From Trypanosoma brucei (taxonomy: Eukaryota), in the NCBI GenBank assembly GCA_000002445.1, contig CP000070.1, positions 1,760,001-1,824,000 of the forward strand: a DNA stretch of 64,000 bases, read 5' to 3'. The notes beneath the pieces were generated by a model, which was not told the origin of the DNA, made no database searches, and saw only the letters and a list, made by a program, of their open reading frames with translations. Made by a program: the position numbers and the translations under genes. Positions 2,274-43,708 of this stretch are shown here, piece by piece (within the stretch, counting starts at the first letter, position 1; every line of letters starts with the position of its first letter).

Positions 2274-2294
2274 AACTGGAAGTCGTTAAAAACA

Positions 2295-3089: not shown

Positions 3090-3202
3090 TATGGGAGTGA
3101 AAGGAAGAATAACATCGGCGGCCGTGCGGAAAATGACAAAAGATCGCGAAAATTCCGAAAAGGAACAATATTGAAGCAGAAGCAGATTAAACTATGATAC
3201 AG

Positions 3203-6650: not shown

Positions 6651-7139
6651 CCCCATGAGAGGAACGCTGCTGGCTCTTGGCTTCCCCCGATGAGACGGGG
6701 TACTGGACCCTGGCACCACGTTGAGGTGGCCGGAATCGCCAGGGAATATAATGCATCAAAACTCACAGCGAATGCAGTCTTTGTAGCACAACCTCAAACT
6801 ACATGTACAGAAACAACAACAGGTAAAGTAAGGGTAAACTGGAGAAAGATTGTAAGGATTGGTGCAAATGGAAATTAAGCCTGCAAGGATTTCACTAATA
6901 TTGTCAATAAAAAATATTTACTGATTGTTTCTGCCTTTATGAGCATTGTGTTTTAAGATAATCGTGCTTTTTTAACATTTTTCTAAATTAATTGAAAATT
7001 TTTAGCAACTGTAATTTAGATAAGTAAAATAATTAAAGTTCAGAAAAATATGCATGATGATGGTTAATGGGTAAAGCGTAGCAAAGTGGGAGAGTATGAA
7101 AACTGAGTTATATCCTAATTTTGTGATATTTTTTATTTT

Positions 7140-28938: not shown

Positions 28939-30907
28939 CCCGCCGGCTCATTCGCGTTGCGCGGGAAGAAGATCAAACCACCTCAGATGTGAATGTTTTT
29001 GCTTACTGAAATAAAACTGTGCTGGGCCAGTCTCGTCGTGTCCGGTGTTTGCGCACCTGAAACTCCCTTTTGTGGTGGAATATCTCCTTTAGGGACTGTT
29101 CGAGTATGTCGGGGTTTTCAGGGGCAGCGCGAACCTACTGCGCGCAGTGGATTGGGCTCATTTTCCAAGGCGGAGTGGTGGCGGTTCTTGGATACACGGC
29201 CGATCCGCAGCTGCGAGTTCGTCAGCGCCAGCCCTTCGGACCTCAGGGGGGGGGAAGTTAGGGCCTGTTTCCCTTTCCAAATCCCCTCAACTACTGTTGC
29301 CTAAAAGAATGCAGGGAGTAGAACCGGAGGGGGGAAACGTTGGGTCCGCCCCGCGTGAAAGCGGTTGGGGCGTACGTCAGGCTTCGCGAGCTGGGGGCGG
29401 TTGTGTTTCGCGTGGGTCCGTTATATTTACCCCTTCCGTTTGTATCCCCACTAAAGAGAAAGTGGTATCCCGATCCACGCTGTATTGCTTCGCCGTGTGC
29501 AATTGCTGTGCCGCTGGGGAGTGCCTTACGGCGTCGTGGGACCGACGTGGCTCGGGGACTTAAGGTGCGCCCTTAAACACCGTGGCTGCTGGCTGGTCAT
29601 GTGTTTATGCTTTGCGATGTGAGGCATTGTGGGGTCGGGCCTTTATGCGGACCCCCGAGGCGTTAGCATGCTTGGTTCTATCGATCATCTCTGTTTGTGC
29701 GCGTATGGTTTCCCCCTCCGTGTTTCGGTGAGGGCAGTGGATGGGGAGATGTCACTGAACAGCGTCGCTGTTGATTATTGTTGCTATGTTATTTTATTTT
29801 CCTAAGGCCACATTGTGGTGCCTAAATACCCGGGTTATCGTCACGCGCATTTATCATTTTTCTATTTAGCCTTTATAGCTGATCCTTCTTTCAAATACAT
29901 TTGCTTGTTCTAGTTTCATATATATATATATTGCAAATGGCAGCTTGGTGCACTTGTTCCGTTGTCGGGGTGATTATTTTCAGAGCGTATATACACCGCT
30001 TGTGGGTGATCGCGGTTTCAAGCCGGTTTACTTTTGTTTTTGAGGACATGTATTGGGGGTGTTACCACTTTTTTGTTCATTGACATTGTACACTTTTTTG
30101 TTTCGGTAAAAAGAAAAAAAACAATGACAGTGATATTTTTTTTTTTCGCTTACCTTCTATATATATACATATATATATATATATATACTTGTCGGTGATA
30201 TGTGTTTGTGTTTGGTGCTGATAATGCTTGCGCTGGGAGTTTCTTTTGTTGGCGTTTGTTTTCTCTGTAAATAAGATCGGCTTTCATTTCACCAATAGTC
30301 CTTGTAATATATCTTTTTTTTTCTTTTTTTTTCTAGGGGGCCATTAGTGCATGTAAGGAGCACTCTTAAGGGAACTTTTGTCAGCAGAATAATCAATGGT
30401 AAGTGTTTTACTTTGGCCATTGCGAGTGCGCTGGACTTTGGGAGCTGGTACTGATACTTCTGTCTTGACGGATTTAAAAAAAAGACAAAAAACTTCACAA
30501 CTATTTCCGAAAGAAAGTAAAGTTTATCCTCTCAAATCAAGTGCGGATCTGTCCCTTTGCACACGCGCTGGTTGACAATAGGTTGATGAGTGACATGTCT
30601 GATCACCTTGTGGTGCGGGTCTTTATTAATTGTCTTGCACTTTATTGATTCATCTGCGCTTTGGCGACTTAGGCGGAGTAGAGGATTGCCAATTCCGTCC
30701 CTTGGAATGGTTTACCGTCTTATTTTATTTTGTTAACCCAGTTGTCTTATGTGTATTCCTTTGTCGGTTGGTGCGAGCTGTGGGTGGGATGCCGATCGTT
30801 TTTTCTTCTGCAACGGCAGAGAGTAGTGCTGATGGATATCGGTAAAGGGTGTTTGCTGCGTCGGTGAAGTAAGTATATCAATAGAAAAGGTACGCATATA
30901 CTAAACA

Positions 30908-31835
30908 TATCACCGCGGGCAAATCCCCGCAACACTCCCGCAGCTCATATAATTCGTCCCCTTCTTGAGCAAGTGGAAACGTGCGGTGCTTTAGGCTTAT
31001 ACAACTCTGTTGCAGATGTTTTTCTGTGCTTCCCCAGCCACTGCAATTCCCTTACTCTCCGTGTCAGGAATAACGTCAGTGACGGGATGTTACAAGTCAC
31101 CGCAAATCGAACCCCAGTCTTCTACACGAAATGTCTACCCGGCATAATCCCGTTTCCACGTATTGGCACGATGCTCAGTCCAACCGCTTTGTGCATTCAG
31201 GCATCAGCGCCACGCAGTTCGCATCATGTCAACCACGTGCATTCCTACGCTGTTGGTGAAAGAATGAGCCAGGAATTGAAGCACATGTACATCCATATGC
31301 AGGAGAGAGACAGTTCCCTCCTTCCCTCAAACAATACACACACGCCACACTACAGTCTCAAAATCACGTTCAGCATTTAACAGCATACACGACACTGTAA
31401 AAGGGACAAAAAGTCACTTCAAGCAAAGCATTACTTAGCATGCGATTACGTAGATATTCATATTGTTGCATGCCCTCCGTCACACGTTGGTACGTTGGAA
31501 CATGCTAACATCAACCATCCGTCCGTCCACACACACACGCACACACCGCTATTTAAAGCAGTTTCTATACATCATTCCACTACCCAGATCCCTTATGGAA
31601 AAATAGAACAGCCACCATGGCACTTTTCCCACAAGCTCATCAGGCCCAAAGGAAGAAAATGAACAATCTACATATTGCGTTTAGTATAGTGTAAGTGAAA
31701 AATAAAGCAATAAAAACAACACTAGTGAACACCGACACGACCCTTCACCACATAAACAGGACCATTACTATTAACACTGTTCTAACAAACTAACCGACCA
31801 ATAATTGAGCGATAATCACACTATCTACAAATAGA
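30908..31835 (+). repeat. family 3'-flank module downstream of G6 (parts B and A plus R), forming the right arm of the inverted repeat
   Basis: Positions 30908..31690 are near-identical to the reverse complement of 3360..4137. Positions 31283..31828 match the R module that recurs after each family gene. Confidence 0.85.
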
Positions 31836-32026
31836 AAATACATCACACGGCTCTACACACTTCCATCGGAATAGAAAATCTAACGCCCTCACCACTCAGC
31901 GCCGGGATCCTACGCAAACTGCGTAACCGTGACGAAAAATATTCTCCGCCGCGCGCACGATCAGAGACCCAACGGCTCCACGGTTACCAAAGCTACTATT
32001 GAAACTAGCCGGTATATGGGGGAGAC

Positions 32027-32644
32027 TCAAGGTCTCGGTGATGTTGCATTACCCCCTCCCACGGCGTCTGCCTCGTCGTCCTCATCTAATATTTCCCAAA
32101 AGTGTTCTGAAGTACATTTCTCCTTCTCAGCCTTCTCCGCTTCTCTCTCAGCATTCCTACTCAACGTCTCGGCTCTGACGGTATACTCATGTGCATCTAG
32201 AAAATTATCTTTCAACCCAAAAACGGCCTTCGTGGTGAGCACCGGTCTCTCGGGTGACTCCCCGCAGAACTTCACAACCTCAGTGAATAACTGACGGACA
32301 CGCCTTTCACTATTCGACAGCTGCGGCTCAATGTACTTAATCGCCCTGTAGTACTGGTCCGCCAGCTTCTTTCGCTGTGCATTGACAGCGTCAACCAACT
32401 CCTTCTGTTCATTCGACTTCACAATTGCGTCACATCTCTTCTTCACAACTTCAGCCCGCTCGGTGGCACGATCAAACCTGTGCCAAACATTAACTAAACG
32501 CATGTTTAAGCGACCATACGAAACTTTCAACCCCAGGCAATACCGCAATCGGCGCGTCGTTGATAGAGCGACGCTCCCCCCCACATTGCACAGAATGGCA
32601 ATGAAAAGGCACACGATGATTTTCTTCGCTAGATTCATTGTCAC
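32027..32644 (-). CDS. secreted acidic-tail protein, family member G6
   Basis: It opens with signal peptide MTMNLAKKIIVCLFIAILCNVGG and carries the family motifs QYYRAIKYIEPQL and CGESPERPVLTT (its CGFW motif is diverged). It has no hydrophobic C-terminus. Confidence 0.65.
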   Translation of the reverse strand: MTMNLAKKIIVCLFIAILCNVGGSVALSTTRRLRYCLGLKVSYGRLNMRLVNVWHRFDRATERAEVVKKRCDAIVKSNEQKELVDAVNAQRKKLADQYYRAIKYIEPQLSNSERRVRQLFTEVVKFCGESPERPVLTTKAVFGLKDNFLDAHEYTVRAETLSRNAEREAEKAEKEKCTSEHFWEILDEDDEADAVGGGNATSPRP

Positions 32645-32699
32645 ACACTTGTCTCTCCTATGTACCGCATGAAATTAAAAAAGAAAAACAGAATAATAT

Positions 32700-33043
32700 C
32701 TTTTGGGCAAGACAATACGAAAAGGGCAATGCAACATATGCAGGAGAGAGACAGTTTCCTCCTTCCCTCAAACAATAGACACACGCCACACTACAGTCTC
32801 ACAATCACATTGGTTATTTAAAAGCACTCACAACACTGTAAAAGGGACAAAAAGTCACTTCAAGCAAAGCATTACTTAGCATGCGGTTACGTAGATATTC
32901 ATATTGTTGCATGCCCTCCGTCACACGTTGGTACGTTGGAACATGCTAACATCAACCATCCGTCCGTCCACACACACACGCACATACCGCTATTTAAAGC
33001 GGTTTCTATACATCATTCCACTACCCAGATCCCTTATGGAAAA
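32700..33043 (+). repeat. conserved intergenic module R (truncated copy)
   Basis: It matches catatgcaggagagagacagtt...ccgctatttaaagc...cccttatggaaaa. Confidence 0.8.
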
Positions 33044-33329
33044 GTTAGTCCTTCCACTTGATACAACGCACGACGTCTCCTTACGACGCAGTATGTTATG
33101 TACAGAAAATAAAATCAAGTAAAGGTGTAGAAAGAGTGACGAAAAAGTGGCATGGTAAGTTGTTATGTGTCCCGCATCAGTATCATTCGAACAGTCGCTG
33201 CCAATACCGCCAAGGATGTGACCAACATGGCACTCAAAATTCCACCAAGCACTCGCACGAACCAGTGCCACTGCCGTCCCATACGCTCGCGGTGAATTCC
33301 TATCCAGCCTACCCATTACTCGGAACCGA

Positions 33330-34013
33330 TCACTGCGAGGTTACATTTTCACCACCAACAGGCGGGGCAGTGCCTTCGGGCGTTTCGGATGCTGCGCTTC
33401 CATCGTTGGGCTCCCCACCTTCTTTCTCTGGCTTTTTGTCTCCCTCTCCGCCCAATGCGTTCTTCGATTCAGCGGAACTGCATTGTGTCGTTCTGGCTTT
33501 CACTTCGCTTGTCTCCGCTTCCCTTGACAGCACCTCCATCTTTGATACTAAAGATTTGGCCTTCCACAATTTGACTCTCGCTTCACGCTTGAGCTCAGAA
33601 GACACTGGCATGAAAGACGACCAGAAGCCGCAATGCTTTCTTATACCATTAAGCAACTCGCGCACGTCTTTCTTGTACTCAATTACCTGAGTCTCAATAT
33701 ATCTAATGGCATTGTATTGTTCCACTACTAATTTCACTTTATCCGAGTTAGCGTTTTCCGTCCCTTCCCTAGTTTCACTTAGTCTAGCAGCCTTCTCACA
33801 GGATGTCCTCACAACCTTTGCACGATCCCGGCTACCATGAAGGGCCTGAAGCAAGGCTGTGCAGCGGCCACTTATTGAATTAATTGATCTTCTCAGTGAA
33901 TCACAATATCTCTCTCGCACTACCCTCTTGCTGAATGCAATACCACCCTGCACACTACATAGCATAGAAACGACAAGGCACACGGTGGCACCCCGCGCAA
34001 GCCTCATGGCCAT
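33330..34013 (-). CDS. secreted acidic-tail protein, family member G5
   Basis: It opens with signal peptide MAMRLARGATVCLVVSMLCSVQGG and carries EQYNAIRYIETQV and CGFWSSFMPVSSEL. Its tail is acidic and Gly-rich. Confidence 0.7.
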   Translation of the reverse strand: MAMRLARGATVCLVVSMLCSVQGGIAFSKRVVRERYCDSLRRSINSISGRCTALLQALHGSRDRAKVVRTSCEKAARLSETREGTENANSDKVKLVVEQYNAIRYIETQVIEYKKDVRELLNGIRKHCGFWSSFMPVSSELKREARVKLWKAKSLVSKMEVLSREAETSEVKARTTQCSSAESKNALGGEGDKKPEKEGGEPNDGSAASETPEGTAPPVGGENVTSQ

Positions 34014-34069
34014 CCTTGAAGACTACTTCCACAAACGAAAGTTATAAAAAAAAAAAGAAAAACAGAATA

Positions 34070-34560
34070 ATATCTTTTGGGCAAGACAATACGAAAAGGG
34101 CAATGCAACATATGCAGGAGAGAGACAGTTCCCTCCTTCCCTCAAACAATACACACACGCCACACTACAGTCTCAAAATCACATTGGTTATTTAAAAGCA
34201 CTCACAACACTGTAAAAGGGACAAAAAGTCACTTCAAGCAAAGCATTACTTAGCATGCGATTACGTAGATATTCATATTGTTGCATGCCCTCCGCCACAC
34301 GTTGGTACGTTGGAACATGCTAACATCAACCATCCGTCCGTCCACACACACACGCACACACCGCTATTTAAAGCAGTTTCTATACATCATTTCATTACCC
34401 AAATCCCTTATGGAAAAATAGAACCCGGAGCACGTCGCCGATCTGTTTATATCTTCAATAAAAAGAACAAAAAGTAAAGCATATTAATGTTATAAAGCAA
34501 TAAAGGAAAGCCACAGCACGCAGCTGAATAACTTGTTATCGTCTAAGAGACCATAATTCT
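34070..34560 (+). repeat. conserved intergenic module R, variant with the ggagcacgtcgccgatctg extension
   Basis: It matches the R core and also the reverse complement of 3290..3440. Confidence 0.8.
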
Positions 34561-34723
34561 GCCACCACTGCCCATCGGGCTGAAAGAACAGATGAGTGTA
34601 GCAATACTCTCGGCGGCCACATTAAGAAACAGCCTGTCGCATCCCTTTAGTATTCAGCGTGCCTTACATTCTCCTCAGCAGCGTAGTTAGCATCCACCCC
34701 CATTCCAGTTATCACTTAATGGC

Positions 34724-35437
34724 TCAATTAGCAGATTCTGTGCCCGCATGTTCCTCACGGGTCTCGGACGAGGTAGTGGACGTGGCCCTATCGAGCTCAC
34801 GAGTTCCGACAGTTGGAGTGGTGTCTTGTAGTGAGTCACCGCCACTTTGCGGCTCCGCTTCACTTCTTGTGACTTCCTCCTGCGTATCTGTAGCTGGCGC
34901 GGAGCACCACTCCCCTGAAGCGTGAGAAGCATAAGATTTCGCATTTTCACTGAGTGATTCCACCTTCGATATCAATTCTGAAGCCTCCTCAAGGTGGCGT
35001 TTTGTGATATCACGCAGAAACGAGGATACGGGAGTGAAAGACAACCAGAAGCCGCAGTGCTTTCCCAAACCGATTAATAAATCGTGAATTTTTTTTTCGT
35101 AATCGGATATCTGCCGTTCATTATACATAATAGCGTTGTAGTACTCATTCACTAATTTCATTTTATCCGAGTTAGCAGCATCACTCACTTCCTTCTCTTC
35201 ACTTAACTTAACAAACCTTTCGCAATTTTCTTTAACATTCTCCACCTTATGAAGTGCATCCTCAAAAACATTCCAGGTGTCAGTAAACCGCTTCCCCAAT
35301 TCCTCAACTGTTGCCTTCAACTTTGTACAGTATCCCCCTTTTTTTTCAACCAGAGAAAAACCACGCACGCCCCCCACATTGCACAGAATGGCAATGAAAA
35401 GGCACACGATGATTTTCTTCGCTAGATTCATTGTCAC
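34724..35437 (-). CDS. secreted acidic-tail protein, family member G4
   Basis: It opens with signal peptide MTMNLAKKIIVCLFIAILCNVGG and carries NEYYNAIMYNERQI and CGFWLSFTPVSSFL. Its tail is S/T/E-rich. Confidence 0.7.
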   Translation of the reverse strand: MTMNLAKKIIVCLFIAILCNVGGVRGFSLVEKKGGYCTKLKATVEELGKRFTDTWNVFEDALHKVENVKENCERFVKLSEEKEVSDAANSDKMKLVNEYYNAIMYNERQISDYEKKIHDLLIGLGKHCGFWLSFTPVSSFLRDITKRHLEEASELISKVESLSENAKSYASHASGEWCSAPATDTQEEVTRSEAEPQSGGDSLQDTTPTVGTRELDRATSTTSSETREEHAGTESAN

Positions 35438-35499
35438 ACACTTGTCTCTCCTATGTACCGCATGAAATTAAAAAAGAAAAACAGAATAATATCTTTTGG

Positions 35500-36060
35500 G
35501 CAAGACAATACGGAAAGCACATGTACATCCATATGCAGGAGAAAGACAGTTTCCTCCTTCCCTCAAACAATAGACACACGCCACACTACAGTCTCAAAAT
35601 CACGTTGGGTATTTAAAAGCACTCACAACACTGTAAAAGGGACAAAAAGTCACTTCAAGCAAAGCATTACTTAGCATGCGATTACGTAGATATTCATATT
35701 GTTGCATGCCCTCCGTCACACGTTGGTACGTTGGAACATGCTAACATCAACCATCCGTCCGTCCACACACACACGCACACACCGCTATTTAAAGCGGTTT
35801 CTATACATCATTTCATCACCCAATTCCCTTATGGAAAAATAGAACGACCACCATGGCACTTTTCCCACAAGCTCATCAGGCCCAAAGGAAGAAAATGAAC
35901 AATCTACATATTGCGTTTAGTATAGTGTAAGTGAAAAATAAAGCAATAAAAACAACACTAGTGAACACCGACACGACCCTTCACCACATAAACAGGACCA
36001 TTACTATTAACACTGTTCTAACAAACTAACCGACCAATAATTGAGCGATAATCACACTAT
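35500..36060 (+). repeat. conserved intergenic module R
   Basis: It is near-identical to 31283..31828 and 39420..39960. Confidence 0.85.
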
Positions 36061-36132
36061 CTACGATAAAACAAAAAAGGTATTCTACCCAACAGCTGCT
36101 GGATCACTATAAACACATCATGCCCAAATCCA

Positions 36133-39100
36133 TTATTGCACAGACACACCCTCGGCACCTACGGATCCAGCAGTTTCTTTAGGTCCAGCACTTCCCTCAG
36201 ATCCAGCACTTTCTTTGGGTCCAGCAGTTTCTTTGGGTCCAGCAGCTTCTTTAGGTCCAGCATTTCCCTCAGATCCAGCACTTCCCTCAGATCCAGCACT
36301 TTCTTTAGGTCCAGCACTTTCTTTAGGTCCAGCACTTCCCTCAGATCCAGCACCTTCTTTAGGTTCAGCAGTTTCTTTAGGTCCAACACTTTCCTCAGAT
36401 CCAGCACCTTCTTTAGGTCCAGCAGTTTCTTTGGGTCCAGCAGCTTCTTTAGGCCCAGCACTTCCCTCAGATCCAGCACTTTCTTCAGGTCCAGCAGTTT
36501 CTTTAGGTCCAGCACTTCCCTCAGATCCAGCACTTTCTTTAGGTCCAGCAGTTTCTTTAGGTCCAGCACTTTCCTCAGATCCAGCACTTTCTTTGGGTCC
36601 AGCAGTTTCTTTGGGTCCAGCACTTTCTTTAGGTCCAGCAGCTTCTTTAGGTCCAGCACTTCCCTCAGATCCAGCACCTTCTTTAGGTCCAGCAGCTTCT
36701 TTAGGTCCAGCACTTCCCTCAGATCCAGCACTTTCTTTGGGTCCAGCAGTTTCTTTGGGTCCAGCAGCTTCTTTAGGTCCAGCACTTCCCTCAGATCCAG
36801 CACTTTCTTTAGGTCCAGCAGTTTCTTTAGGTCCAGCACTTTCCTCAGATCCAGCACTTTCTTTAGGTCCAGCACTTTCTTTAGGTCCAGCACTTCCCTC
36901 AGATCCAGCACCTTCTTTAGGTTCAGCAGTTTCTTTAGGTCCAACACTTTCCTCAGATCCAGCACCTTCTTTAGGTCCAGCAGTTTCTTTGGGTCCAGCA
37001 GCTTCTTTAGGCCCAGCACTTCCCTCAGATCCAGCACTTTCTTTAGGTCCAGCAGTTTCTTTAGGTCCAGCACTTCCCTCAGATCCAGCACCTTCTTTAG
37101 GTTCAGCAGTTTCTTTAGGTCCAGCACTTCCCTCAGATCCAGCACTTTCTTTGGGTCCAGCACTTTCTTTGGGTCCAGCACTTTCTTTAGGTCCAGCACT
37201 TCCCTCAGATCCAGCACCTTCTTTAGGTTCAGCAGTTTCTTTAGGTCCAGCACTTTCTTTAGGTCCAGCACTTTCCTCAGATCCAGCACTTTCTTTGGGT
37301 CCAGCAGTTTCTTTGGGTCCAGGACTTTCTTTAGGTCCAGCAGTTTTTTTAGGTCCAGCACTTTCTTTAGGTCCAGCACTTCCCTCAGATCCAGCACTTT
37401 CTTTAGGTCCAGCACTTTCTTTAGGTCCAGCAGTTTTTTTAGGTCCAGCACTTTCTTTAGGTCCAGCACTTCCCTCAGATCCAGCACTTTCTTTAGGTCC
37501 AGCAGTTTCTTTAGGTCCAGCACTTTCCTCAGATCCGGCACTTTCTTTAGGTCCAGCAGCTTCTTTAGGTCCAGCACTTCCCTCAGATCCAGCACTTTCT
37601 TTAGGTCCAGCACTTTCTTTAGGTCCAGCAGTTTCTTTGGGTCCAGCAGCTTCTTTAGGTCCAGCACTTCCCTCAGATCCAGCACTTTCTTTAGGTCCAG
37701 CAGTTTCTTTAGGTCCAGCACTTTCCTCAGATCCAGCACTTTCTTTGGGTCCAGCAGTTTCTTTGGGTCCAGCACTTTCTTTAGGTCCAGCAGCTTCTTT
37801 AGGTCCAGCACTTCCCTCAGATCCAGCACCTTCTTTAGGTCCAGCAGCTTCTTTAGGTCCAGCACTTCCCTCAGATCCAGCACTTTCTTTGGGTCCAGCA
37901 GTTTCTTTGGGTCCAGCAGCTTCTTTAGGTCCAGCACTTCCCTCAGATCCAGCACTTTCTTTAGGTCCAGCAGTTTCTTTAGGTCCAGCACTTTCCTCAG
38001 ATCCAGCACTTTCTTTGGGTCCAGCAGTTTCTTTGGGTCCAGCAGTTTCTTTGGGTCCAGCAGTTTCTTTGGGTCCAGCAGCTTCTTTAGGTCCAGCACT
38101 TCCCTCAGATCCAGCACCTTCTTTAGGTCCAGCAGCTTCTTTAGGTCCAGCACTTCCCTCAGATCCAGCACTTTCTTTGGGTCCAGCATTTCCCTCAGAT
38201 CCAGCACTTCCCTCAGATCCAGCATTTCCCTCAGATCCAGCACTTCCCTCAGGTCCAGCACCTTCTTTAGGTCCAGCACTTTCTTTAGGTCCAGCACTTT
38301 CTTTGGGTCCAGCACTTCCCTCAGATCCAGCACTTCCCTCAGATCCAGCACTTTCTTTAGGTCCAGTACTTTCTTTGGGTCCGGCACTTTCTTTAGGTCC
38401 AGCACTTTCTTTAGGTCCAGTACTTTCTTTGGATCCAGCACTTTCTTTAGGTCCAGTACTTTCTTTGGGTCCAGCACTTCCCTCAGATCCAGCACTTCCC
38501 TCAGGTCCAGCACCTTCTTTAGGTCCAGCACTTTCTTTAGGTCCAGCACTTTCTTTAGGTCCAGCACTTCCCTCAGATCCAGCACTTCCCTCAGATCCAG
38601 CACTTTCTTTAGGTCCAGTACTTTCTTTGGGTCCGGCACTTTCTTTAGGTCCAGCACTTTCTTTAGGTCCAGCACTTTCCTCAGATCCAGCACCTTCTTT
38701 AGGGTCGACAAGACCCCCAGGCGTGACGGGGGTACCTTGCGTTTTGGGCGACTCTAAGGAAGTTGGACTGCTATTTTTTGTTTTGTTTGTCCTATTGACC
38801 TCTTTTTCGGTGGACATTTCGTCGGTTTCTGTGCCAGGATCAAGGAAAGTGCATATTCCCTCTTTTAGATTTTCCCCGTAATACCTGGCATCAAAACTAA
38901 GAGCCTCAATTCTTGCCGTAAGAAATTTGACCTGTAACAAATTGGTAGTTGTATACCGGTGTACCTCATCAGATAATAGCGTGAAAGACACCCAAAAGCC
39001 ACATTCTTTTTTAATGTTGCCAACCAATTCGTGTACCTTCTTTTCGTGGTCATCAACCTTGCGTTTTATAAGAAGGATGGCATCATTGTACCCATCCAGT

Positions 39101-39417
39101 ATCTTTATTCGCTCCCATGCAAAAGTACTCCTACCACTGGTGTCAAGTATCCTACAGTTAACAACCTCCTCCCTAACATTTACAAGTGAACGCTTGACGT
39201 CACGTTTTGCCTGCTCCAAACGATTATTAATATCAAATAAAAGACGCTTCATTCTTGCACAATATCTCGCTCTGCTCTCCCATCTATTAAAAAAACTGCT
39301 GGCATCAACAACATATGATGTATGCACCACAAAAAATAGCACAATACACCACAGAACATGCATTTTCTTCAACGACAACAACACAAAAACAATAAAAAAA
39401 AACAATAGCACATGCAC
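36133..39417 (-). CDS. family member G3 with a giant hexapeptide-repeat tail (1094 aa; an alternative start at 39363)
   Basis: The N-domain (RYCARMK...DGYNDAILLIKRKV...CGFWVSFTLLSDEV) differs from siblings in its signal peptide (MHVLWCIVLFFVVHTSYVVDASS). About 140 units of GPKESA/GPKETA/GSEGSA/GPKEAA follow. The C-terminus SAGSVGAEGVSVQ is identical to that of G2. Confidence 0.7.
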   Translation of the reverse strand: MHVLLFFFIVFVLLSLKKMHVLWCIVLFFVVHTSYVVDASSFFNRWESRARYCARMKRLLFDINNRLEQAKRDVKRSLVNVREEVVNCRILDTSGRSTFAWERIKILDGYNDAILLIKRKVDDHEKKVHELVGNIKKECGFWVSFTLLSDEVHRYTTTNLLQVKFLTARIEALSFDARYYGENLKEGICTFLDPGTETDEMSTEKEVNRTNKTKNSSPTSLESPKTQGTPVTPGGLVDPKEGAGSEESAGPKESAGPKESAGPKESTGPKESAGSEGSAGSEGSAGPKESAGPKESAGPKEGAGPEGSAGSEGSAGPKESTGPKESAGSKESTGPKESAGPKESAGPKESTGPKESAGSEGSAGSEGSAGPKESAGPKESAGPKEGAGPEGSAGSEGNAGSEGSAGSEGNAGPKESAGSEGSAGPKEAAGPKEGAGSEGSAGPKEAAGPKETAGPKETAGPKETAGPKESAGSEESAGPKETAGPKESAGSEGSAGPKEAAGPKETAGPKESAGSEGSAGPKEAAGPKEGAGSEGSAGPKEAAGPKESAGPKETAGPKESAGSEESAGPKETAGPKESAGSEGSAGPKEAAGPKETAGPKESAGPKESAGSEGSAGPKEAAGPKESAGSEESAGPKETAGPKESAGSEGSAGPKESAGPKKTAGPKESAGPKESAGSEGSAGPKESAGPKKTAGPKESPGPKETAGPKESAGSEESAGPKESAGPKETAEPKEGAGSEGSAGPKESAGPKESAGPKESAGSEGSAGPKETAEPKEGAGSEGSAGPKETAGPKESAGSEGSAGPKEAAGPKETAGPKEGAGSEESVGPKETAEPKEGAGSEGSAGPKESAGPKESAGSEESAGPKETAGPKESAGSEGSAGPKEAAGPKETAGPKESAGSEGSAGPKEAAGPKEGAGSEGSAGPKEAAGPKESAGPKETAGPKESAGSEESAGPKETAGPKESAGSEGSAGPKETAGPEESAGSEGSAGPKEAAGPKETAGPKEGAGSEESVGPKETAEPKEGAGSEGSAGPKESAGPKESAGSEGSAGSEGNAGPKEAAGPKETAGPKESAGSEGSAGPKETAGSVGAEGVSVQ
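36160..38705 (-). repeat. 18-nt tandem repeat array of about 140 units (GGACCTAAAGAAAGTGCT and variants), coding
   Basis: Perfect 18-nt periodicity is visible on the plus strand as ggtccagcactttcttta / ggatctgagggaagtgct variants. All six frames are open across it, which produces the artefactual overlapping ORFs. Confidence 0.95.
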
Positions 39418-39419
39418 AT

Positions 39420-39960
39420 GCAGGAGAGAGACAGTTCCCTCCTTCCCTCAAACAATAGACACACGCCACACTACAGTCTCAAAATCACGTTCAGCATTTA
39501 ACAGCATACACGACACTGTAAAAGGGACAAAAAGTCACTTCAAGCAAAGCATTACTTAGCATGCGGTTACGTAGATATTCATATTGTTGCATGCCCTCCG
39601 TCACACGTTGGTACGTTGGAACATGCTAACTCCCTTATCTCACGGCCGCTCCTCCCCACCGCTATTTAAAGCGGTCCTAACGTAATCTTATAACTAACCG
39701 GATCCCTTATGGAAAAATAGAACGACCACCATGGCACTTTTCCCACAAGCTCATCAGGCCCAAAGGAAGAAAATAAACAATCTAAATGATATCAATAATA
39801 TAATGTAAAAATAAAGCAATAAAAACAACACTAGTGAACACCGACACGACCCTTCACCACATAAACAGGACCATTACTATTAACAGTGTTCTAACAAACT
39901 AACCGACCAATAATTGAGCGATAATCACACTATCTACGATAAAACAAAAAAGGTATTCTA
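39420..39960 (+). repeat. conserved intergenic module R
   Basis: It is near-identical to 35500..36060. Confidence 0.85.
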
Positions 39961-40005
39961 CCCAACAGCTGCTGGATCATTATAAACACATCATGCCCAA
40001 ATCCA

Positions 40006-43000
40006 TTATTGCACAGACACACCCTCGGCACCTACGGATCCAGCACTTTCTTTAGGTCCAGCAGTTTCTTTGGGTCCAGCACTTTCTTTAGGTCCAGCAC
40101 TTCCCTCAGATCCAGCACTTTCTTTGGGTCCAGCAGTTTCTTTGGGTCCAGCACTTCCCTCAGATCCAGCACTTTCTTTAGGTCCAGCAGTTTCTTTAGG
40201 TCCAGCACTTTCCTCAGATCCGGCACTTTCTTTAGGTCCAGCACTTTCTTTAGGTCCAGCAGTTTCTTTGGGTCCAGCAGTTTCTTTGGGTCCAGCACTT
40301 CCCTCAGATCCAGCAGTTTCTTTGGGTCCAGCACTTCCCTCAGATCCAGCACCTTCTTTAGGTCCAGCATTTCCCTCAGATCCAGCACTTCCCTCAGATC
40401 CAGCACTTTCTTTAGGTCCAGCACTTCCCTCAGATCCGGCACTTTCTTTAGGTCCAGCACTTTCTTTGGGTCCAGCACTTTCTTTAGGTCCAGCATTTCC
40501 CTCAGATCCAGCACTTCCCTCAGATCCAGCACTTTCTTTAGGTCCAGCACTTTCTTTAGGTCCAGCACTTCCCTCAGATCCAGCACCTTCTTTAGGTCCA
40601 GCACTTTCTTTAGGTCCAGCAGCTTCTTTAGGTCCAGCACTTTCTTTAGGTCCAGCAGTTTCTTTAGGTCCAGCACTTTCCTCAGATCCGGCACTTTCTT
40701 TAGGTCCAGCACTTTCTTTGGGTCCGGCACTTTCTTTAGGTCCAGCAGCTTCTTTAGGTCCAGCACTTTCCTCAGATCCGGCACTTTCTTTAGGTCCAGC
40801 ACTTTCCTCAGATCCAGCAGCTTCTTTAGGTCCAGCACTTTCCTCAGATCCAGCAGTTTCTTTAGGTTCAGCACTTTCTTTAGGTCCAGCACTTTCCTCA
40901 GATCCGGCACTTTCTTTAGGTCCAGCACTTTCTTTGGGTCCAGCACTTTCCTCAGATCCAGCAGCTTCTTTAGGTCCAGCACTTTCCTCAGATCCAGCAG
41001 TTTCTTTAGGTCCAGCACTTTCCTCAGATCCAGCAGTTTCTTTAGGTTCAGCACTTTCTTTAGGTCCAGCACTTTCTTTAGGTCCAGCACCTTCTTTAGG
41101 TCCAGCACTTTCTTTAGGTCCAGCACTTTCTTTAGGTCCAGCACCTTCTTTAGGTCCAGCACTTTCCTCAGATCCAGCAGTTTCTTTAGGTTCAGCACTT
41201 TCTTTAGGTCCAGCACTTTCTTTAGGTCCAGCAGCTTCTTTAGGTCCAGCACTTTCTTTAGGTCCAGCACCTTCTTTAGGTCCAGTACTTTCTTTAGGTC
41301 CAGCACTTTCTTTAGGTCCAGCACCTTCTTTAGGTCCAGCACTTTCTTTAGGTCCAGCAGCTTCTTTAGGTCCAGCAGCTTCTTTAGGTCCAGCACTTCC
41401 CTCAGATCCAGCACCTTCTTTAGGTCCAGCATTTCCCTCAGATCCAGCATTTCCCCCAGATCCAGCACTTTCTTTGGGTCCAGCATTTCCCTCAGATCCA
41501 GCATTTCCCCCAGATCCAGCACTTTCTTTGGGTCCAGCACTTTCCTCAGATCCAGCAGCTTCTTTAGGTCCAGCACTTTCTTTAGGTCCAGCACTTTCTT
41601 TAGGTCCAGCAGCTTCTTTAGGTCCAGCAGCTTCTTTAGGTCCAGCACTTCCCTCAGATCCAGCACCTTCTTTAGGTCCAGCATTTCCCTCAGATCCAGC
41701 ATTTCCCCCAGATCCAGCACTTTCTTTGGGTCCAGCATTTCCCTCAGATCCAGCATTTCCCCCAGATCCAGCACTTTCTTTGGGTCCAGCACTTTCTTTA
41801 GGTCCAGCACTTTCTTTAGGTCCAGCACTTTCTTTAGGTCCAGCAGCTTCTTTAGGTCCAGCATTTCCCTCAGATCCAGCAGCTTCTTTAGGTCCAGCAC
41901 TTTCCTCAGATCCAGCACCTTCTTTAGGTTCAGCACTTTCTTTAGGTCCAGCACTTTCTTTAGGTCCAGCAGCTTCTTTAGGTCCAGCATTTCCCTCAGA
42001 TCCAGCATTTCCCCCAGATCCAGCACTTTCCTCAGATCCGGCACTTTCTTTAGGTCCAGCACTTCCCTCAGATCCAGCAGCTTCTTTAGGTCCAGCACTT
42101 TCTTTGGGTCCAGCAGCTTCTTTAGGTCCAGCACTTCCCTCAGATCCAGCAGCTTCTTTAGGTCCAGCATTTCCCTCAGATCCAGCATTTCCCCCAGATC
42201 CAGCACTTTCTTTGGGTCCAGCATTTCCCTCAGATCCAGCAGTTTCTTTAGGTCCGGCAGTTTCTTTGGGTCCAGCACTTTCTTTAGGTCCAGCAGTTTC
42301 TTTAGGTCCAGCACTTTCCTCAGATCCAGCACTTTCTTTAGGTCCAGCAGCTTCTTTAGGTCCAGCACTTTCCTCAGATCCAGCACTTTCTTTGGGTCCA
42401 GCAGCTTCCTTGGTGGTGACCGTTTCTTTTGGCGACTGGGATGTCGCACCACTGCTTTTGGGTTCCTCTTGTTTTTTCTTTGCCTTTTCTTCCTCCTCCC
42501 CCGCCAATACATTCTCTGTCCCCACCAAGACGCATCTGTTTCTTGCGGCGGTATCGCTGTGATTTTTTGCACCAAGACTGAGTTTGTCTATCATTATCGT
42601 TAGGGATCTTGCTTCTAACAGTTTTTCTTTAACAGTTCTTTTGAATGACGATGTGAGTGGCATGAAAGACAACCAGAAGCCGCAGCCGTTCCATATTTCA
42701 CCAGTCAAAGTGTTGATCTTCCTTTCGCAATCACCGATGAGCAGTTCAATTTGCCTAATGGCACTGTAGCTCTCGTCTACTAACTTAAGTTTTTCTGAGT
42801 TGGTGGCGCCAGAAACGTCCTTGGCTTTCTTATGCTTCAAAATACCTTCGCATTCTGCTTTTACGGCTAGCGTGTTATTGAACGCACGGTCGAATACGTT
42901 CCATGACTCTGAAAATCGGTTGTTAACTTTGTTAATAACACTTTTGACCTTTTTACAATGAGCTGCTCTGCTTTCCCGCCTCTCGAAACCACGCACGCCC

Positions 43001-43065
43001 CCCACATTGCACAGAATGGCAATGAAAAGGCACACGATGATTTTCTTCGCTAGATTCATTGTCAC
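40006..43065 (-). CDS. family member G2 with a giant hexapeptide-repeat tail (1019 aa)
   Basis: It opens with signal peptide MTMNLAKKIIVCLFIAILCNVGG and carries the N-domain motifs (ESYSAIRQIELLI, CGFWLSFMPLTSSF). About 130 hexapeptide units follow, including GSGGNA/GSEGNA/GPKEGA variants absent from G3. Confidence 0.7.
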   Translation of the reverse strand: MTMNLAKKIIVCLFIAILCNVGGVRGFERRESRAAHCKKVKSVINKVNNRFSESWNVFDRAFNNTLAVKAECEGILKHKKAKDVSGATNSEKLKLVDESYSAIRQIELLIGDCERKINTLTGEIWNGCGFWLSFMPLTSSFKRTVKEKLLEARSLTIMIDKLSLGAKNHSDTAARNRCVLVGTENVLAGEEEEKAKKKQEEPKSSGATSQSPKETVTTKEAAGPKESAGSEESAGPKEAAGPKESAGSEESAGPKETAGPKESAGPKETAGPKETAGSEGNAGPKESAGSGGNAGSEGNAGPKEAAGSEGSAGPKEAAGPKESAGPKEAAGSEGSAGPKESAGSEESAGSGGNAGSEGNAGPKEAAGPKESAGPKESAEPKEGAGSEESAGPKEAAGSEGNAGPKEAAGPKESAGPKESAGPKESAGPKESAGSGGNAGSEGNAGPKESAGSGGNAGSEGNAGPKEGAGSEGSAGPKEAAGPKEAAGPKESAGPKESAGPKEAAGSEESAGPKESAGSGGNAGSEGNAGPKESAGSGGNAGSEGNAGPKEGAGSEGSAGPKEAAGPKEAAGPKESAGPKEGAGPKESAGPKESTGPKEGAGPKESAGPKEAAGPKESAGPKESAEPKETAGSEESAGPKEGAGPKESAGPKESAGPKEGAGPKESAGPKESAEPKETAGSEESAGPKETAGSEESAGPKEAAGSEESAGPKESAGPKESAGSEESAGPKESAEPKETAGSEESAGPKEAAGSEESAGPKESAGSEESAGPKEAAGPKESAGPKESAGPKESAGSEESAGPKETAGPKESAGPKEAAGPKESAGPKEGAGSEGSAGPKESAGPKESAGSEGSAGSEGNAGPKESAGPKESAGPKESAGSEGSAGPKESAGSEGSAGSEGNAGPKEGAGSEGSAGPKETAGSEGSAGPKETAGPKETAGPKESAGPKESAGSEESAGPKETAGPKESAGSEGSAGPKETAGPKESAGSEGSAGPKESAGPKETAGPKESAGSVGAEGVSVQ
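40030..42405 (-). repeat. 18-nt tandem repeat array of about 130 units, coding
   Basis: It has the same 18-nt unit family as 36160..38705 but a different mix and order of variant units. Confidence 0.95.
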
Positions 43066-43129
43066 ACACTTGTCTCTCCTATGTACCGCATGAAATTAAA
43101 AAAGAAAAACAGAATAATATCTTTTGGGC

Positions 43130-43700
43130 AAGACAATAGGGAAAGCACATGTACATCCATATGCAGGAGAAAGACAGTTTCCTCCTTCCCTCAAACAATA
43201 GACACACGCCACACTACAGTCTCACAATCACGTTGGGTATTTAAAAGCACTCACAACACTGTAAAAGGGACAAAAAGTCACTTCAAGCAAAGCATTACTT
43301 AGCATGCGATTACGTAGATATTCATATTGTTGCATGCCCTCCGTCACACGTTGGTACGTTGGAACATGCTAACATCAACCATCCGTCCGTCCACACACAC
43401 ACGCACACACCGCTATTTAAAGCAGTTTCTATACATCATTCCACTACCCAAATGTCCCATGCTTATCCGGAAGCCGGAGCACGTCGCCGATCTGTTCATA
43501 TCTTCAATAAAAAGAACAAAAAGTAAAGCATATTAATGTTATAAAGCAATAAAGGAAAACCACAGCACGCAGCTGAATAACTTGTTATCATCGAAGCAGC
43601 ATCTCAACCTACGTAGCCTTGAGCAAGACGAAGCAACATCTTCCATCGTCGTGTTCCCAATCAAATAAAATCCGTTGACTCCTTCTTACATTCAACTTGT
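43130..43700 (+). repeat. conserved intergenic module R plus G1-type 3' flank
   Basis: It matches the R core. Positions 43440..43670 match the reverse complement of 3203..3440. Confidence 0.8.
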
Positions 43701-43708
43701 CTCATGCT

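What the first reader, a model, noticed from the sequence alone, without database searches (positions are those of the whole stretch)
31283..43700. A conserved intergenic module R of about 350-550 bp follows every family gene in seven copies and is far more conserved than the coding N-domains
The block gcacatgtacatccatatgcaggagagagacagtt...cacacacacacgcacacaccgctatttaaagc(a/g)gtttctatacatcatt...cccttatggaaaaatagaac... recurs seven times. The copies are at 31283-31828, 32700-33043, 34070-34560, 35500-36060, 39420-39960 and 43130-43700, plus the reverse complement at 3290-3720. Identity is roughly 90-99%, whereas the adjacent protein N-domains are only about 30-40% identical.

The module lies 3' of each gene and so is candidate 3'UTR. 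It is maintained by gene conversion or by selection. This is the pattern expected for a shared post-transcriptional regulatory element, since stage regulation in trypanosomes is 3'UTR-driven, or for a recombination substrate homogenising the array.
Basis: partly seen in the sequence, partly recalled or inferred. Interest (0 to 1): 0.5.

Follow-up and report, generated by a model that had tools for sequence, protein, structure and literature searches.

The report
Shared 3' flank of SGM1 genes
The seven genes of a Trypanosoma brucei surface-protein family (Fam10/SGM1) are each followed by a nearly identical 300-550 bp stretch holding the end of their 3'UTR and its poly(A) site, kept alike by gene conversion while the protein-coding parts have diverged completely; this is a real but already known kind of pattern in trypanosome gene arrays.

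Summary
The window is T. brucei TREU927 chromosome 7 (window coordinate + 1,760,000). The family is Fam10/SGM1.1-1.7 (Tb927.7.6490, .6550-.6600), whose mRNAs peak in tsetse metacyclic forms.

A core of about 315 bp lies 3' of all seven genes and nowhere else in the 64 kb. Six copies are 93-98% identical and R5 is 80-87%. The N-domains are 21-45% identical in protein, and their third codon positions are saturated.

Published poly(A) mapping puts the predominant site of Tb927.7.6560 and .6570 at the same homologous position inside the core. So about 240 nt of the core plus its gene-proximal extension is distal 3'UTR. The last 70 nt is post-poly(A) spacer. In three units the near-identity runs on through the 5'UTR and signal peptide of the next gene, then collapses.

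Gene conversion is well supported by three results:
- the flanks are mosaic;
- 69 of 153 site pairs fail the four-gamete test;
- some copies are closer to non-orthologous copies in another strain than to their own ortholog.

T. congolense Fam10 arrays show the same architecture with unrelated sequence, and the paralogs predate that species split.

A regulatory role for the shared 3'UTR is plausible but untested. Verdict: a new member of a known kind.

The parts
3176..3756 (+). R0, the 3' flank of SGM1.1 (Tb927.7.6490, CDS 2295-3089). Proximal extension type B is 3176-3427 and the core is 3428-3742. The position homologous to the mapped poly(A) site is 3670, giving a predicted 3'UTR of 581 nt.
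   Evidence: (I2-I6)
3742..4130 (+). Extension Y. This sequence follows the core only in the two array-terminal copies, where no family gene follows. Together with the distal core (3426-3741) it forms the left arm (3426-4130) of a 705-bp, 98% inverted repeat with 30905-31609.
   Evidence: (I1)
30905..31293 (-). Extension Y after R1. Together with the core it forms the right arm (30905-31609) of the same inverted repeat.
   Evidence: (I1)
31279..31828 (-). R1, the 3' flank of SGM1.2 (Tb927.7.6550, CDS 32027-32638). The core is 31293-31607 and proximal extension type A is 31608-31828. The poly(A) homolog is 31365, giving a predicted 3'UTR of 662 nt.
32735..33048 (-). R2, the core only, forming the distal 3'UTR of SGM1.3 (Tb927.7.6560, CDS 33330-34013). 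The experimentally mapped predominant poly(A) site is at 32806, giving a 3'UTR of 524 nt.
32577..32734 (-). Extension X: spacer, polypyrimidine tracts, candidate splice-acceptor AGs, 5'UTR and the first 62 nt (signal peptide) of SGM1.2. It is 96-99% identical to 35358-35514 and 42986-43142.
34051..34547 (-). R3, the 3' flank of SGM1.4/ESP17 (Tb927.7.6570, CDS 34724-35431). Extension B is 34425-34547 and the core is 34109-34422. The mapped poly(A) site is at 34180, giving a 3'UTR of 544 nt. Positions 34051-34108 are shared spacer and 5'UTR upstream of SGM1.3.
35358..36132 (-). R4 unit, the whole 3'UTR of SGM1.5 (Tb927.7.6580, CDS 36133-39363). Extension A is 35844-36132 and the core is 35529-35843. 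The poly(A) homolog is 35601, giving a predicted 3'UTR of 532 nt. Extension X with the SGM1.4 signal-peptide codons is 35358-35514.
39410..40005 (-). R5 unit, the 3'UTR of SGM1.6 (Tb927.7.6590, CDS 40006-43059). This is the divergent copy: A1 columns 80-158 are rewritten and carry an 8-nt deletion. It is 76-84% identical to the others before the poly(A) position and 93-96% after it. The poly(A) homolog is 39486.
42986..43723 (-). R6 unit, the 3' flank of SGM1.7 (Tb927.7.6600, CDS 43709-44515). Extension B is 43454-43723 and overlaps the last 15 nt of the CDS. The core is 43157-43471. The poly(A) homolog is 43229, giving a predicted 3'UTR of 480 nt. Extension X with the SGM1.6 signal-peptide codons is 42986-43142.
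   Evidence: (I2)
32832..32949 (-). Nearly invariant 118-nt block of the core, A1 columns 159-276, given here in R2 coordinates to within a few nt. Only two of its columns vary across all seven copies, R5 included. It ends 27 nt upstream of the poly(A) site. It contains two GCAUGC and two CCAACGU motifs and a UUUUUGUCCCUUUUACAG tract.

Best explanation
R is the shared 3'-flank and mRNA-processing module of the tandem Fam10/SGM1 gene array of Trypanosoma brucei.

Read in the direction of the genes, each unit has three parts:
1. A gene-proximal 3'UTR segment. It comes in two interchangeable types, A and B, or is unique in SGM1.3.
2. A core of about 315 nt. Its first 240 nt is the distal 3'UTR and ends at a precise poly(A) site. 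Its last 70 nt is post-poly(A) spacer carrying the first polypyrimidine tract.
3. In units followed by another family gene, a second shared piece with the main polypyrimidine tract, the splice-acceptor AGs, a short 5'UTR and, in three genes, the signal-peptide codons.

The near-identity is produced mainly by ongoing short-tract gene conversion (concerted evolution) between paralogous flanks. The mature-protein N-domains diverged before T. brucei and T. congolense split. They are now too different to recombine, so conversion tracts stop at their edges.

The consequence, which is inferred and not shown, is that all seven mRNAs carry the same distal 3'UTR and the same processing signals. That is the most economical basis for their common expression profile: low in epimastigotes, 11-23-fold higher in metacyclics, and lower again in bloodstream forms.

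Shown here: the anatomy, the poly(A) position for two genes, the conversion signatures and the cross-species parallel. Inferred: that the shared 3'UTR is what co-regulates the family.
For: Identity of the locus:
- The 227-aa ORF is exactly XP_846276 of TREU927 chromosome 7.
- The published SGM1.3 and SGM1.7 qPCR primers map into genes G2 and G6.
- Fam10 is exemplified by Tb927.7.6600 in Jackson 2013 Table S1.

Anatomy:
- Seven genes and seven R copies, always on the 3' side.
- The Kolev 2010 poly(A) sites reproduce both 3'UTR lengths, 524 and 544 nt, exactly with one offset of 1,760,000. They fall on the same alignment column, 71 nt before the end of the core.
- The distance from poly(A) site to the next ATG is only 122-169 nt and contains polypyrimidine tracts and AGs.

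Homogenisation rather than site-by-site constraint:
- The post-poly(A) 72 nt is 93-99% identical, as high as the 3'UTR part.
- Identity stays at 98-100% through the first 63 nt of the next CDS and then falls to 46-57%.
- Homology boundaries ignore gene boundaries. For example, the last 15 nt of the SGM1.7 CDS match the 3'UTR of SGM1.1.
- The proximal segments are shuffled: type A follows SGM1.2, 1.5 and 1.6, and type B follows SGM1.1, 1.4 and 1.7.
- 69 of 153 pairs of informative sites in 315 bp show all four gametes.

Conversion is recent:
- In T. b. equiperdum the R4 ortholog differs from TREU927 R4 at 21 sites but from R1 at 13.
- The equiperdum R3 ortholog is closer to TREU927 R0 (5 differences) and R4 (7) than to R3 (11).

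The paralogs are old:
- Third codon positions are 24-42% identical, and dS is undefined or above 1.4.
- SGM1.2 and T. congolense L006b are reciprocal best hits (119 and 108 bits, against 84 or less to any paralog).
- All but one near-identical pair (L004a/L009a) of the T. congolense genes match a T. brucei gene better than any T. congolense paralog.

Same architecture, different sequence, in T. congolense:
- The 300 nt upstream of Fam10 genes are 97-99% identical, and five of the seven genes share the signal peptide (four of them 100% identical in DNA, L010b 89%).
- The mature domains are only 19-30% identical.

Co-regulation:
- All six quantified members rise together in metacyclics.
- The one member with a divergent R, SGM1.6 with R5, shows the weakest induction. 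Its LSMeans are 119, 713 and 515, against about 130-260, 1700-3000 and 2300-4300 for the others.

The general phenomenon is documented for other T. brucei arrays (Jackson 2007).
Against: - No experiment links R to expression.
- The SGM1.6 correlation rests on a single gene. It is confounded by read mapping in a repeat, because 3'-end scRNA-seq was used, and Tb927.7.6580 is absent from the table altogether.
- Poly(A) sites are reported for only two of the seven genes and in procyclic cells. R2 and R3 are identical for about 30 nt upstream of the site, so short reads may not separate them cleanly.
- Splice-acceptor sites were not available. The SAS table is truncated in the held copy.
- R has no similarity, and no shared k-mers above chance, with T. 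congolense Fam10 intergenic DNA.
- No Rfam family matches, folding energy is not unusual (z = +0.6 and -0.77), and no known T. brucei RBP motif is present.
- Selection and conversion are not mutually exclusive. The 118-nt block that is invariant even in R5 could reflect constraint.
- Genome-wide distribution of R was not testable.
Confidence: 0.75

Rival explanations
1. R is conserved chiefly because it is a cis-regulatory RNA element under strong purifying selection, for example a binding platform for a metacyclic-stage RNA-binding protein. Gene conversion would play little part.
For: - About 240 nt of the core lies in mature 3'UTRs.
- The family is tightly co-regulated.
- A 118-nt block is nearly invariant in all seven copies, including the otherwise divergent R5.
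- The gene carrying R5 is the least induced.
- A C/U polymorphism in the CCGCU...AGCGG hairpin preserves pairing through a G-U pair.
Against: - The 70 nt after the poly(A) site, and the spacer, 5'UTR and signal-peptide codons beyond it, are just as conserved.
- Conservation is uniform rather than motif-like.
- Four-gamete failures and non-orthologous nearest neighbours show actual sequence exchange.
- Nothing is conserved with T. congolense, although the paralogs predate that split.
- There is no structural signal and no known motif.
Confidence: 0.15
2. R is a dispersed repeat, or a degenerate SIDER-like retroposon, that happens to sit behind these genes and is not specific to the family.
For: - The window is rich in ingi/RIME fragments next to the array.
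- In Leishmania, 3'UTR retroposon remnants of about 550 bp (SIDERs) regulate mRNA fate (own knowledge).
- Genome-wide copy number could not be measured here.
Against: - Seven of seven copies sit in the same orientation and the same position relative to a family gene, and none lies elsewhere in the 64 kb. The T. b. equiperdum flank (20.7 kb) shows copies only after family genes. In the gapped T. b. gambiense flank (20.8 kb) one of the two copies lies on the opposite strand, so orientation there is unresolved.
- R has no BLAST similarity to the ingi/RIME pieces in the window.
- It has no A-rich tail and no target-site duplication. Its edges are recombination-type mosaics that run into coding sequence.
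- T. congolense has an analogous family-specific block of unrelated sequence.
Confidence: 0.05
3. The whole gene-plus-flank units were duplicated recently, and only the N-domains then diverged very fast under positive selection. On this view R is simply young.
For: Surface-protein N-domains often evolve fast. dN is high, at 0.61-1.08.
Against: - Synonymous and third-position sites are saturated too.
- SGM1.2 has a clear T. congolense ortholog, and all but one pair of the T. congolense genes are closer to T. brucei genes than to each other, so the paralogs predate the species split.
- Copy relationships differ between segments and between strains.
Confidence: 0.03

Closest known systems
T. brucei tandem arrays whose non-coding repeats are less diverged than their CDS (BARP array Tb93, Tb24, Tb62a; Jackson 2007, PMC1855330)
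   Same: - Tandem paralogs lie in one polycistron.
- Intergenic and UTR sequence is much more alike than the coding sequence. For BARP the distances are CDS 0.335 against UTRs 0.073 and 0.038.
- CDS and UTRs give inconsistent phylogenetic signals.
- Gene conversion frequently affects UTRs and spans start or stop codons.
   Different: - This case is more extreme. The coding N-domains are saturated and older than the T. brucei/T. congolense split, while the flanks are 93-98% identical.
- The Fam10 array is not among those discussed in that paper's main text.
- The homogenised tract is anchored on an experimentally mapped poly(A) site and ends at the signal-peptide boundary.
VSG gene cassettes: divergent N-domain between conserved flanks (upstream 70-bp repeats; conserved C-terminal and 3'UTR sequence). 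From own knowledge.
   Same: Hypervariable N-terminal domains are embedded between conserved flanks that serve as substrates for homologous recombination.
   Different: - There is no sign that whole SGM1 genes are copied or replaced. The order SGM1.4-1.3-1.2 is retained in T. b. equiperdum.
- The exchanged material is the flank itself, not the gene.
- The genes are chromosome-internal, Pol II-transcribed and not telomeric.
Leishmania amastin 3'UTR element of about 450 nt and SIDER retroposon-derived 3'UTR elements. From own knowledge: Boucher et al. 2002; Bringaud et al. 2007.
   Same: A block of several hundred nt is shared by the 3'UTRs of a stage-regulated surface-protein family.
   Different: - Those elements have reporter-proven activity and are dispersed on many unrelated genes.
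- R has no tested activity and no retroposon hallmarks.
- Within the DNA examined, R is confined to one array.
T. cruzi MASP and mucin families: conserved UTRs, signal peptide and GPI signal around a hypervariable centre. From own knowledge.
   Same: Conserved non-coding flanks and signal-peptide codons surround a highly divergent mature domain.
   Different: - Those are very large dispersed families whose C-terminal coding end is also conserved.
- Fam10 has seven linked genes and no GPI signal.
- Its conserved 3' side is non-coding.

Membership tests
Concertedly evolving intergenic repeat of a trypanosome tandem gene array (sensu Jackson 2007) | Repeated once per gene unit, in the same orientation, within a tandem array of paralogs in one transcription unit | tested here: met
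   Seven Fam10 genes and seven R copies, all 3' of a gene. The transcription units end at .6490 and .6550.
Concertedly evolving intergenic repeat of a trypanosome tandem gene array (sensu Jackson 2007) | Cladistic criterion: paralogous copies within a species are more alike than the homologous regions of another species | tested here: met
   T. brucei flanks are 93-98% alike and T. congolense flanks 97-99% alike. There is no detectable similarity between the two species, although the N-domains show cross-species orthology.
Concertedly evolving intergenic repeat of a trypanosome tandem gene array (sensu Jackson 2007) | Compatibility and mosaic evidence of gene conversion between copies | tested here: met
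   69 of 153 site pairs fail the four-gamete test. The proximal and distal extensions are shuffled. Non-orthologous copies are the nearest neighbours between TREU927 and T. b. equiperdum.
Stage-specific 3'UTR cis-regulatory element (procyclin 16-mer/26-mer, ESAG9 element, amastin element) | Lies inside the mature 3'UTR | tested here: met
   Published poly(A) sites at window 32806 and 34180 place about 240 nt of the core, plus the proximal extension, in the 3'UTR. The last 70 nt lies outside it.
Stage-specific 3'UTR cis-regulatory element (procyclin 16-mer/26-mer, ESAG9 element, amastin element) | Confers the stage-specific expression pattern on a reporter, and its mutation abolishes that pattern | not testable with these tools
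   No such experiment was found in the searchable literature. The only data are correlative: co-induction of the family and weaker induction of the gene with the divergent R5.
Stage-specific 3'UTR cis-regulatory element (procyclin 16-mer/26-mer, ESAG9 element, amastin element) | Conserved sequence or structure beyond what homogenisation gives: cross-species conservation, covariation or a known RBP motif | tested here: not met
   - No similarity and no excess shared k-mers with T. congolense Fam10 flanks.
- Folding z-scores of +0.6 and -0.77.
- No UA(U)6, PUF or ARE motif shared by all seven 3'UTRs (the only PUF-type matches lie in the unique proximal 3'UTRs of SGM1.2 and SGM1.3), and no cell-cycle motif.
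SIDER/ingi-related retroposon remnant or other dispersed repeat | Sequence relationship to ingi/RIME, with an A-rich 3' tail and target-site duplication | tested here: not met
   R has no BLAST match to the ingi/RIME fragments in the window. The edges of the copies are homology breakpoints without an A-tail.
SIDER/ingi-related retroposon remnant or other dispersed repeat | Dispersed through the genome next to unrelated genes | not testable with these tools
   No T. brucei whole-genome search was available. Within the 64 kb window copies are only behind Fam10 genes, and in the T. b. equiperdum flank likewise; the gapped T. b. gambiense flank leaves the context of one copy unresolved. A look-up of an R-derived ORF found nothing on record.
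Any curated RNA family (Rfam 15) | Covariance-model match | tested here: not met
   No match at E of 1 or below on either strand of 30500-36200, which covers four copies.

The most novel reading that the evidence does not exclude
The shared distal 3'UTR, and in particular the 118-nt block that is almost invariant in all seven copies and ends 27 nt before the poly(A) site, is the cis-element that switches SGM1 mRNAs on during metacyclogenesis. Gene conversion would then be the means by which an old, diverged family is kept under one post-transcriptional switch. That would give the first defined metacyclic-stage 3'UTR element in T. brucei and a bait for its RNA-binding protein.
Probability: 0.3. 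Interest if true: 0.6.

Novelty: new member of a known kind. Interest (0 to 1): 0.35.

Why it matters
SGM1/Fam10 proteins are invariant surface or flagellar-pocket proteins of the mammal-infective metacyclic stage. [quoted passage not shown] Three things follow from the finding.

1. A reporter test. Knowing that all seven mRNAs share one distal 3'UTR gives a concrete, testable handle on metacyclic-specific gene control, about which very little is known. A short list of constructs would settle it: R4 against the natural variant R5, and deletion of the invariant block.

2. A practical warning. A 300-550 bp repeat that is 93-98% identical sits exactly where 3'-end single-cell RNA-seq reads fall. 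Expression values for individual SGM1 genes may therefore be affected by multi-mapping. One member is missing from the published table.

3. An evolutionary example. Flanks evolve in concert within a species while the coding domains they flank stay orthologous across species, and this happened in parallel in T. brucei and T. congolense.

Tried and rejected
- Rfam scan of four copies, both strands: nothing.
- Single-sequence folding of the 524-nt 3'UTR and of the 238-nt core part: no better than shuffles. The copies are too alike for covariation analysis, so none was attempted.
- Known T. brucei 3'UTR motifs (RBP10 UA(U)6, PUF9, generic PUF, cell-cycle CAUAGAA, ARE): none is shared by all seven 3'UTRs.
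- Search for R in T. congolense Fam10 loci by sensitive blastn, by nhmmer with the R profile and by k-mer sharing: only chance-level hits.
- Retroposon origin: rejected on anatomy and on lack of similarity to ingi/RIME in the window.
- Recent duplication: rejected on saturated synonymous sites and cross-species orthology.
- Word-indexed protein searches found only T. brucei-group orthologs. The exhaustive profile search was needed to reach T. congolense.
- Splice-acceptor data:
  - Siegel 2010 has no held supplements.
  - The Kolev SAS table is truncated in the held copy.
  - Nilsson 2010 lists .6570 and .6600 only as 'up'.
- The T. b. gambiense locus (L001) has assembly gaps in the array, so it was used only for two copies.
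- A look-up of an ORF inside R and extension Y, as a way to find other genomic contexts, found nothing on record.
- Literature searches by accession and by UniProt name found nothing.
- Two scripts failed and gave no result.


Full report
WHAT THE WINDOW IS

One ORF, 33330-34013 on the minus strand, is residue-for-residue XP_846276 of Trypanosoma brucei brucei TREU927 chromosome 7. Another ORF is 97% identical to a T. b. gambiense 'T. brucei spp.-specific protein'.

Jackson et al. 2013 list Tb927.7.6600 as the example of cell-surface family Fam10. That family has a signal peptide, no GPI signal, 8 copies in T. brucei, 6 in T. congolense and none in T. vivax. Vigneron et al. 2020 renamed the seven linked genes sgm1.1-1.7. 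They showed that the genes peak in metacyclic forms and that SGM1.7 is on the metacyclic surface.

Their qPCR primers for Tb927.7.6560 and Tb927.7.6600 match the window exactly at 33742-33761 and 43915-43934. This fixes the gene assignment:
- SGM1.1 = Tb927.7.6490, 2295-3089 (+)
- SGM1.2 = .6550, 32027-32638 (-)
- SGM1.3 = .6560, 33330-34013 (-)
- SGM1.4/ESP17 = .6570, 34724-35431 (-)
- SGM1.5 = .6580, 36133-39363 (-)
- SGM1.6 = .6590, 40006-43059 (-)
- SGM1.7 = .6600, 43709-44515 (-)

A profile of the N-domains finds exactly these seven genes in the six-frame translation.

THE OBSERVATION

In the orientation of the genes, a core of about 315 alignment columns is common to all copies (alignment A1).
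- Six copies are 92.7-98.1% identical to each other.
- R5, which follows SGM1.6, is 80-87% identical to the rest, because a stretch (columns 80-158) is rewritten and carries an 8-nt deletion.

By contrast the N-domains are far apart:
- 21-45% identical in protein;
- 38-59% identical in nucleotides;
- 24-42% identical at third codon positions, which is saturation;
- Nei-Gojobori dS is undefined or above 1.4.

The published figure for the same domains is 19-42% similarity.

R always lies downstream of a family gene once strand is considered. It is absent upstream of SGM1.7 and SGM1.1, the first genes of the two converging transcription units.

ANATOMY

The copies are mosaics.

Gene-proximal to the core there are three kinds of sequence:
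- Type A follows SGM1.2, 1.5 and 1.6 (31608-31828, 35844-36132 and 39724-40005).
- Type B follows SGM1.1, 1.4 and 1.7 (3176-3427, 34425-34547 and 43454-43723).
- SGM1.3 has 286 nt of unique sequence.

Distal to the core there are two kinds of sequence:
- Extension X is shared by the units that precede SGM1.2, 1.4 and 1.6, and in part by the unit that precedes SGM1.3.
- Extension Y follows only the two terminal copies (30905-31293 and 3742-4130).

Kolev et al. 2010, Table S13, give these predominant poly(A) sites:
- Tb927.7.6560: 1792806, 3'UTR 524 nt, dispersion 1.65;
- Tb927.7.6570: 1794180, 3'UTR 544 nt, dispersion 2.21.

A single offset of 1,760,000 reproduces both UTR lengths exactly from the stop codons in the window. 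The sites are therefore at window 32806 and 34180. Both fall on A1 column 303, which is 71 nt before the end of the core.

This divides the module as follows:
- About 240 nt of the core, plus the proximal segment, is distal 3'UTR. Predicted 3'UTRs are 480-662 nt.
- The last 70 nt of the core is post-poly(A) spacer with a CUGUCUCUCUCCUGC tract.
- Extension X holds a second, longer polypyrimidine tract, candidate acceptor AGs 10-60 nt before the ATG, and the start of the next gene.
- The distance from poly(A) site to next ATG is only 122-169 nt.

One caveat applies. The data are from procyclic cells, cover two genes only, and R2 and R3 are identical just upstream of the site.

WHY R IS SO CONSERVED

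Four lines of evidence point to gene conversion rather than site-by-site constraint.

1. Conservation does not track the mature mRNA.
- The post-poly(A) 72 nt is 93-99% identical in all pairs, R5 included.
- For SGM1.2, 1.4 and 1.6 the identity stays at 93-99% through spacer and 5'UTR, and at 98-100% through the first 63 coding nucleotides. These encode the shared signal peptide MNLAKKIIVCLFIAILCNVGG.
- Identity then drops to 46-57% in the next 300 nt.
- Homology edges ignore gene edges. The last 15 nt of the SGM1.7 CDS align with the 3'UTR of SGM1.1.

2. The few variable sites are reticulate. Of 153 pairs of biallelic informative sites, 69 show all four combinations within 315 bp.

3. Exchange has happened since T. 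brucei strains diverged. In T. b. equiperdum the copy at the R4 position differs from TREU927 R4 at 21 of 327 sites but from R1 at 13. The copy at the R3 position is closer to TREU927 R0 (5 differences) and R4 (7) than to R3 (11). R2 and R6 behave as plain orthologs, with 7 and 10 differences.

4. The paralogs are older than the species.
- An exhaustive profile search found T. congolense homologs, and their contigs could be fetched.
- SGM1.2 and T. congolense L006b are reciprocal best hits, at 119 and 108 bits against 84 or less to any paralog.
- All but one near-identical pair (L004a/L009a) of the T. congolense genes match a T. brucei gene better than their own paralogs.
- L010 also preserves synteny with the gene upstream of SGM1.1.

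Yet the flanks are species-specific. R has no detectable counterpart in T. congolense. The T. congolense genes have their own block instead. The 300 nt upstream are 97-99% identical in five genes, and five genes share the signal peptide MGPGSRFALLFLALMVCGV (identical in DNA in four, 89% in L010b), next to mature domains that are 19-30% identical.

Flanks evolving in concert within each species, around coding domains that keep cross-species orthology, is the signature of concerted evolution. It occurred in parallel in the two species.

DOES R REGULATE?

In favour:
- The shared sequence is in the 3'UTR.
- All six quantified members rise together from epimastigote to metacyclic. LSMeans go from about 130-260 to 1700-3000 and then 2300-4300.
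- The one gene with a divergent copy, SGM1.6 with R5, rises least, at 119, 713 and 515.
- A 118-nt block (A1 columns 159-276) has only two variable columns in seven copies, even in R5.

Against, or neutral:
- No Rfam family matches.
- Folding is not unusual.
- No known T. brucei RBP motif is present.
- Nothing is conserved with T. congolense.
- The expression comparison rests on a single gene, from 3'-end scRNA-seq whose reads fall in the repeat itself. Tb927.7.6580 is absent from the table.
- I found no paper that describes or tests this 3'UTR.

COMPARISON WITH WHAT IS KNOWN

Jackson 2007 surveyed T. brucei tandem arrays. He reported arrays in which non-coding repeats are much less diverged than the CDS:
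- BARP, with CDS 0.335 against UTRs 0.073 and 0.038 substitutions per site;
- Tb24 and Tb62a, with invariant non-coding regions.

He also reported incongruent CDS and UTR phylogenies, and gene-conversion events that often lie in UTRs or span start and stop codons.

The Fam10 array fits that class and is an extreme case of it, so I file it as a new member of a known kind.

It works like the flank-conserved, centre-variable organisation of VSG cassettes and of the T. cruzi MASP and mucin genes (own knowledge). It differs in showing no sign of whole-gene replacement.

It resembles the Leishmania amastin/SIDER 3'UTR elements only in being a family-wide 3'UTR block. It fails the retroposon features that could be tested, and its activity is untested.

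LIMITS

- Whether R occurs elsewhere in the T. brucei genome could not be tested, because none of the searchable DNA collections holds trypanosome genomes.
- Within the 64 kb window R is found only behind Fam10 genes, and the same holds in the T. b. equiperdum flank. The T. b. gambiense flank has assembly gaps, and one of its two copies lies on the opposite strand.
- Splice-acceptor positions are predicted, not measured.

VERDICT

The functional reading is open. Interest is moderate (0.35). It rests on the handle R offers for metacyclic-stage gene control, and on the warning it gives for read mapping in a vaccine-candidate family.

Noticed in passing
window 3426-4130 and 30905-31609: A 705-bp inverted repeat, 98% identical, made of the R core plus extension Y after the two array-terminal genes. 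It brackets a 26.8-kb island at a convergent strand-switch region and could mediate inversion of that island.
   Followed up: partly
window 5500-29000: The island holds five VSG genes or pseudogenes on the + strand: 8704-10308, 11495-13050 (split), 14894-16300, 18226-19638 and 21242-22885, of both A-type and B-type. It also holds ingi/RIME-type retroposon pieces on the - strand, with reverse transcriptase at 27367-28110, RNase H and zinc fingers at 24886-26898, and a 2A-like DVEENPGP peptide in ORF 6020-6766.
   Followed up: partly
window 36163-38706 and 40037-42411: About 2.5 kb of 18-nt tandem repeats encode GPKESA/GSEGSA hexapeptides in SGM1.5 and SGM1.6. TrypTag places these two proteins in the flagellar-pocket lumen. 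T. congolense homologs (L004 1633-6432 and L006 114-1583) also carry long Pro/Glu/Lys-rich repeats, so repeat-bearing members are an old feature of the family.
   Followed up: partly
window 32577-32638, 35358-35431, 42986-43059: SGM1.2, 1.4 and 1.6 share an identical signal peptide, MNLAKKIIVCLFIAILCNVGG. DNA identity is 98-100% over the first 63 coding nt and 46-57% over the next 300 nt, so a conversion boundary sits at the signal-peptide/mature-protein junction.
   Followed up: yes
window 39486-39721 (R5) and published Dataset S1 of PMC7007551: SGM1.6, the gene with the divergent R copy, shows the weakest metacyclic induction. SGM1.5 (Tb927.7.6580) is missing from the scRNA-seq table. Both could reflect biology, or multi-mapping of 3'-end reads in the repeat.
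   Followed up: partly
L004 37-420 and 1335-1636; L005 1847-2230; L006 1781-2164; L009 1271-1570 (T. congolense IL3000 contigs): T. congolense Fam10 genes are preceded by their own intergenic block, 97-99% identical between copies and followed in most of them by a shared signal peptide. It is unrelated in sequence to the T. brucei module, while the mature domains are 19-30% identical.
   Followed up: yes
window 43709-43723 versus 3176-3190: The last 15 nt of the SGM1.7 coding sequence are homologous to 3'UTR sequence of SGM1.1, so the homology tracts cross the stop codon.
   Followed up: no
L001 12219-12318 and 19965-20064: The T. b. gambiense DAL972 assembly has N gaps inside the SGM1 array, and only some family genes are annotated there. 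The array is probably mis-assembled or collapsed in that genome.
   Followed up: no
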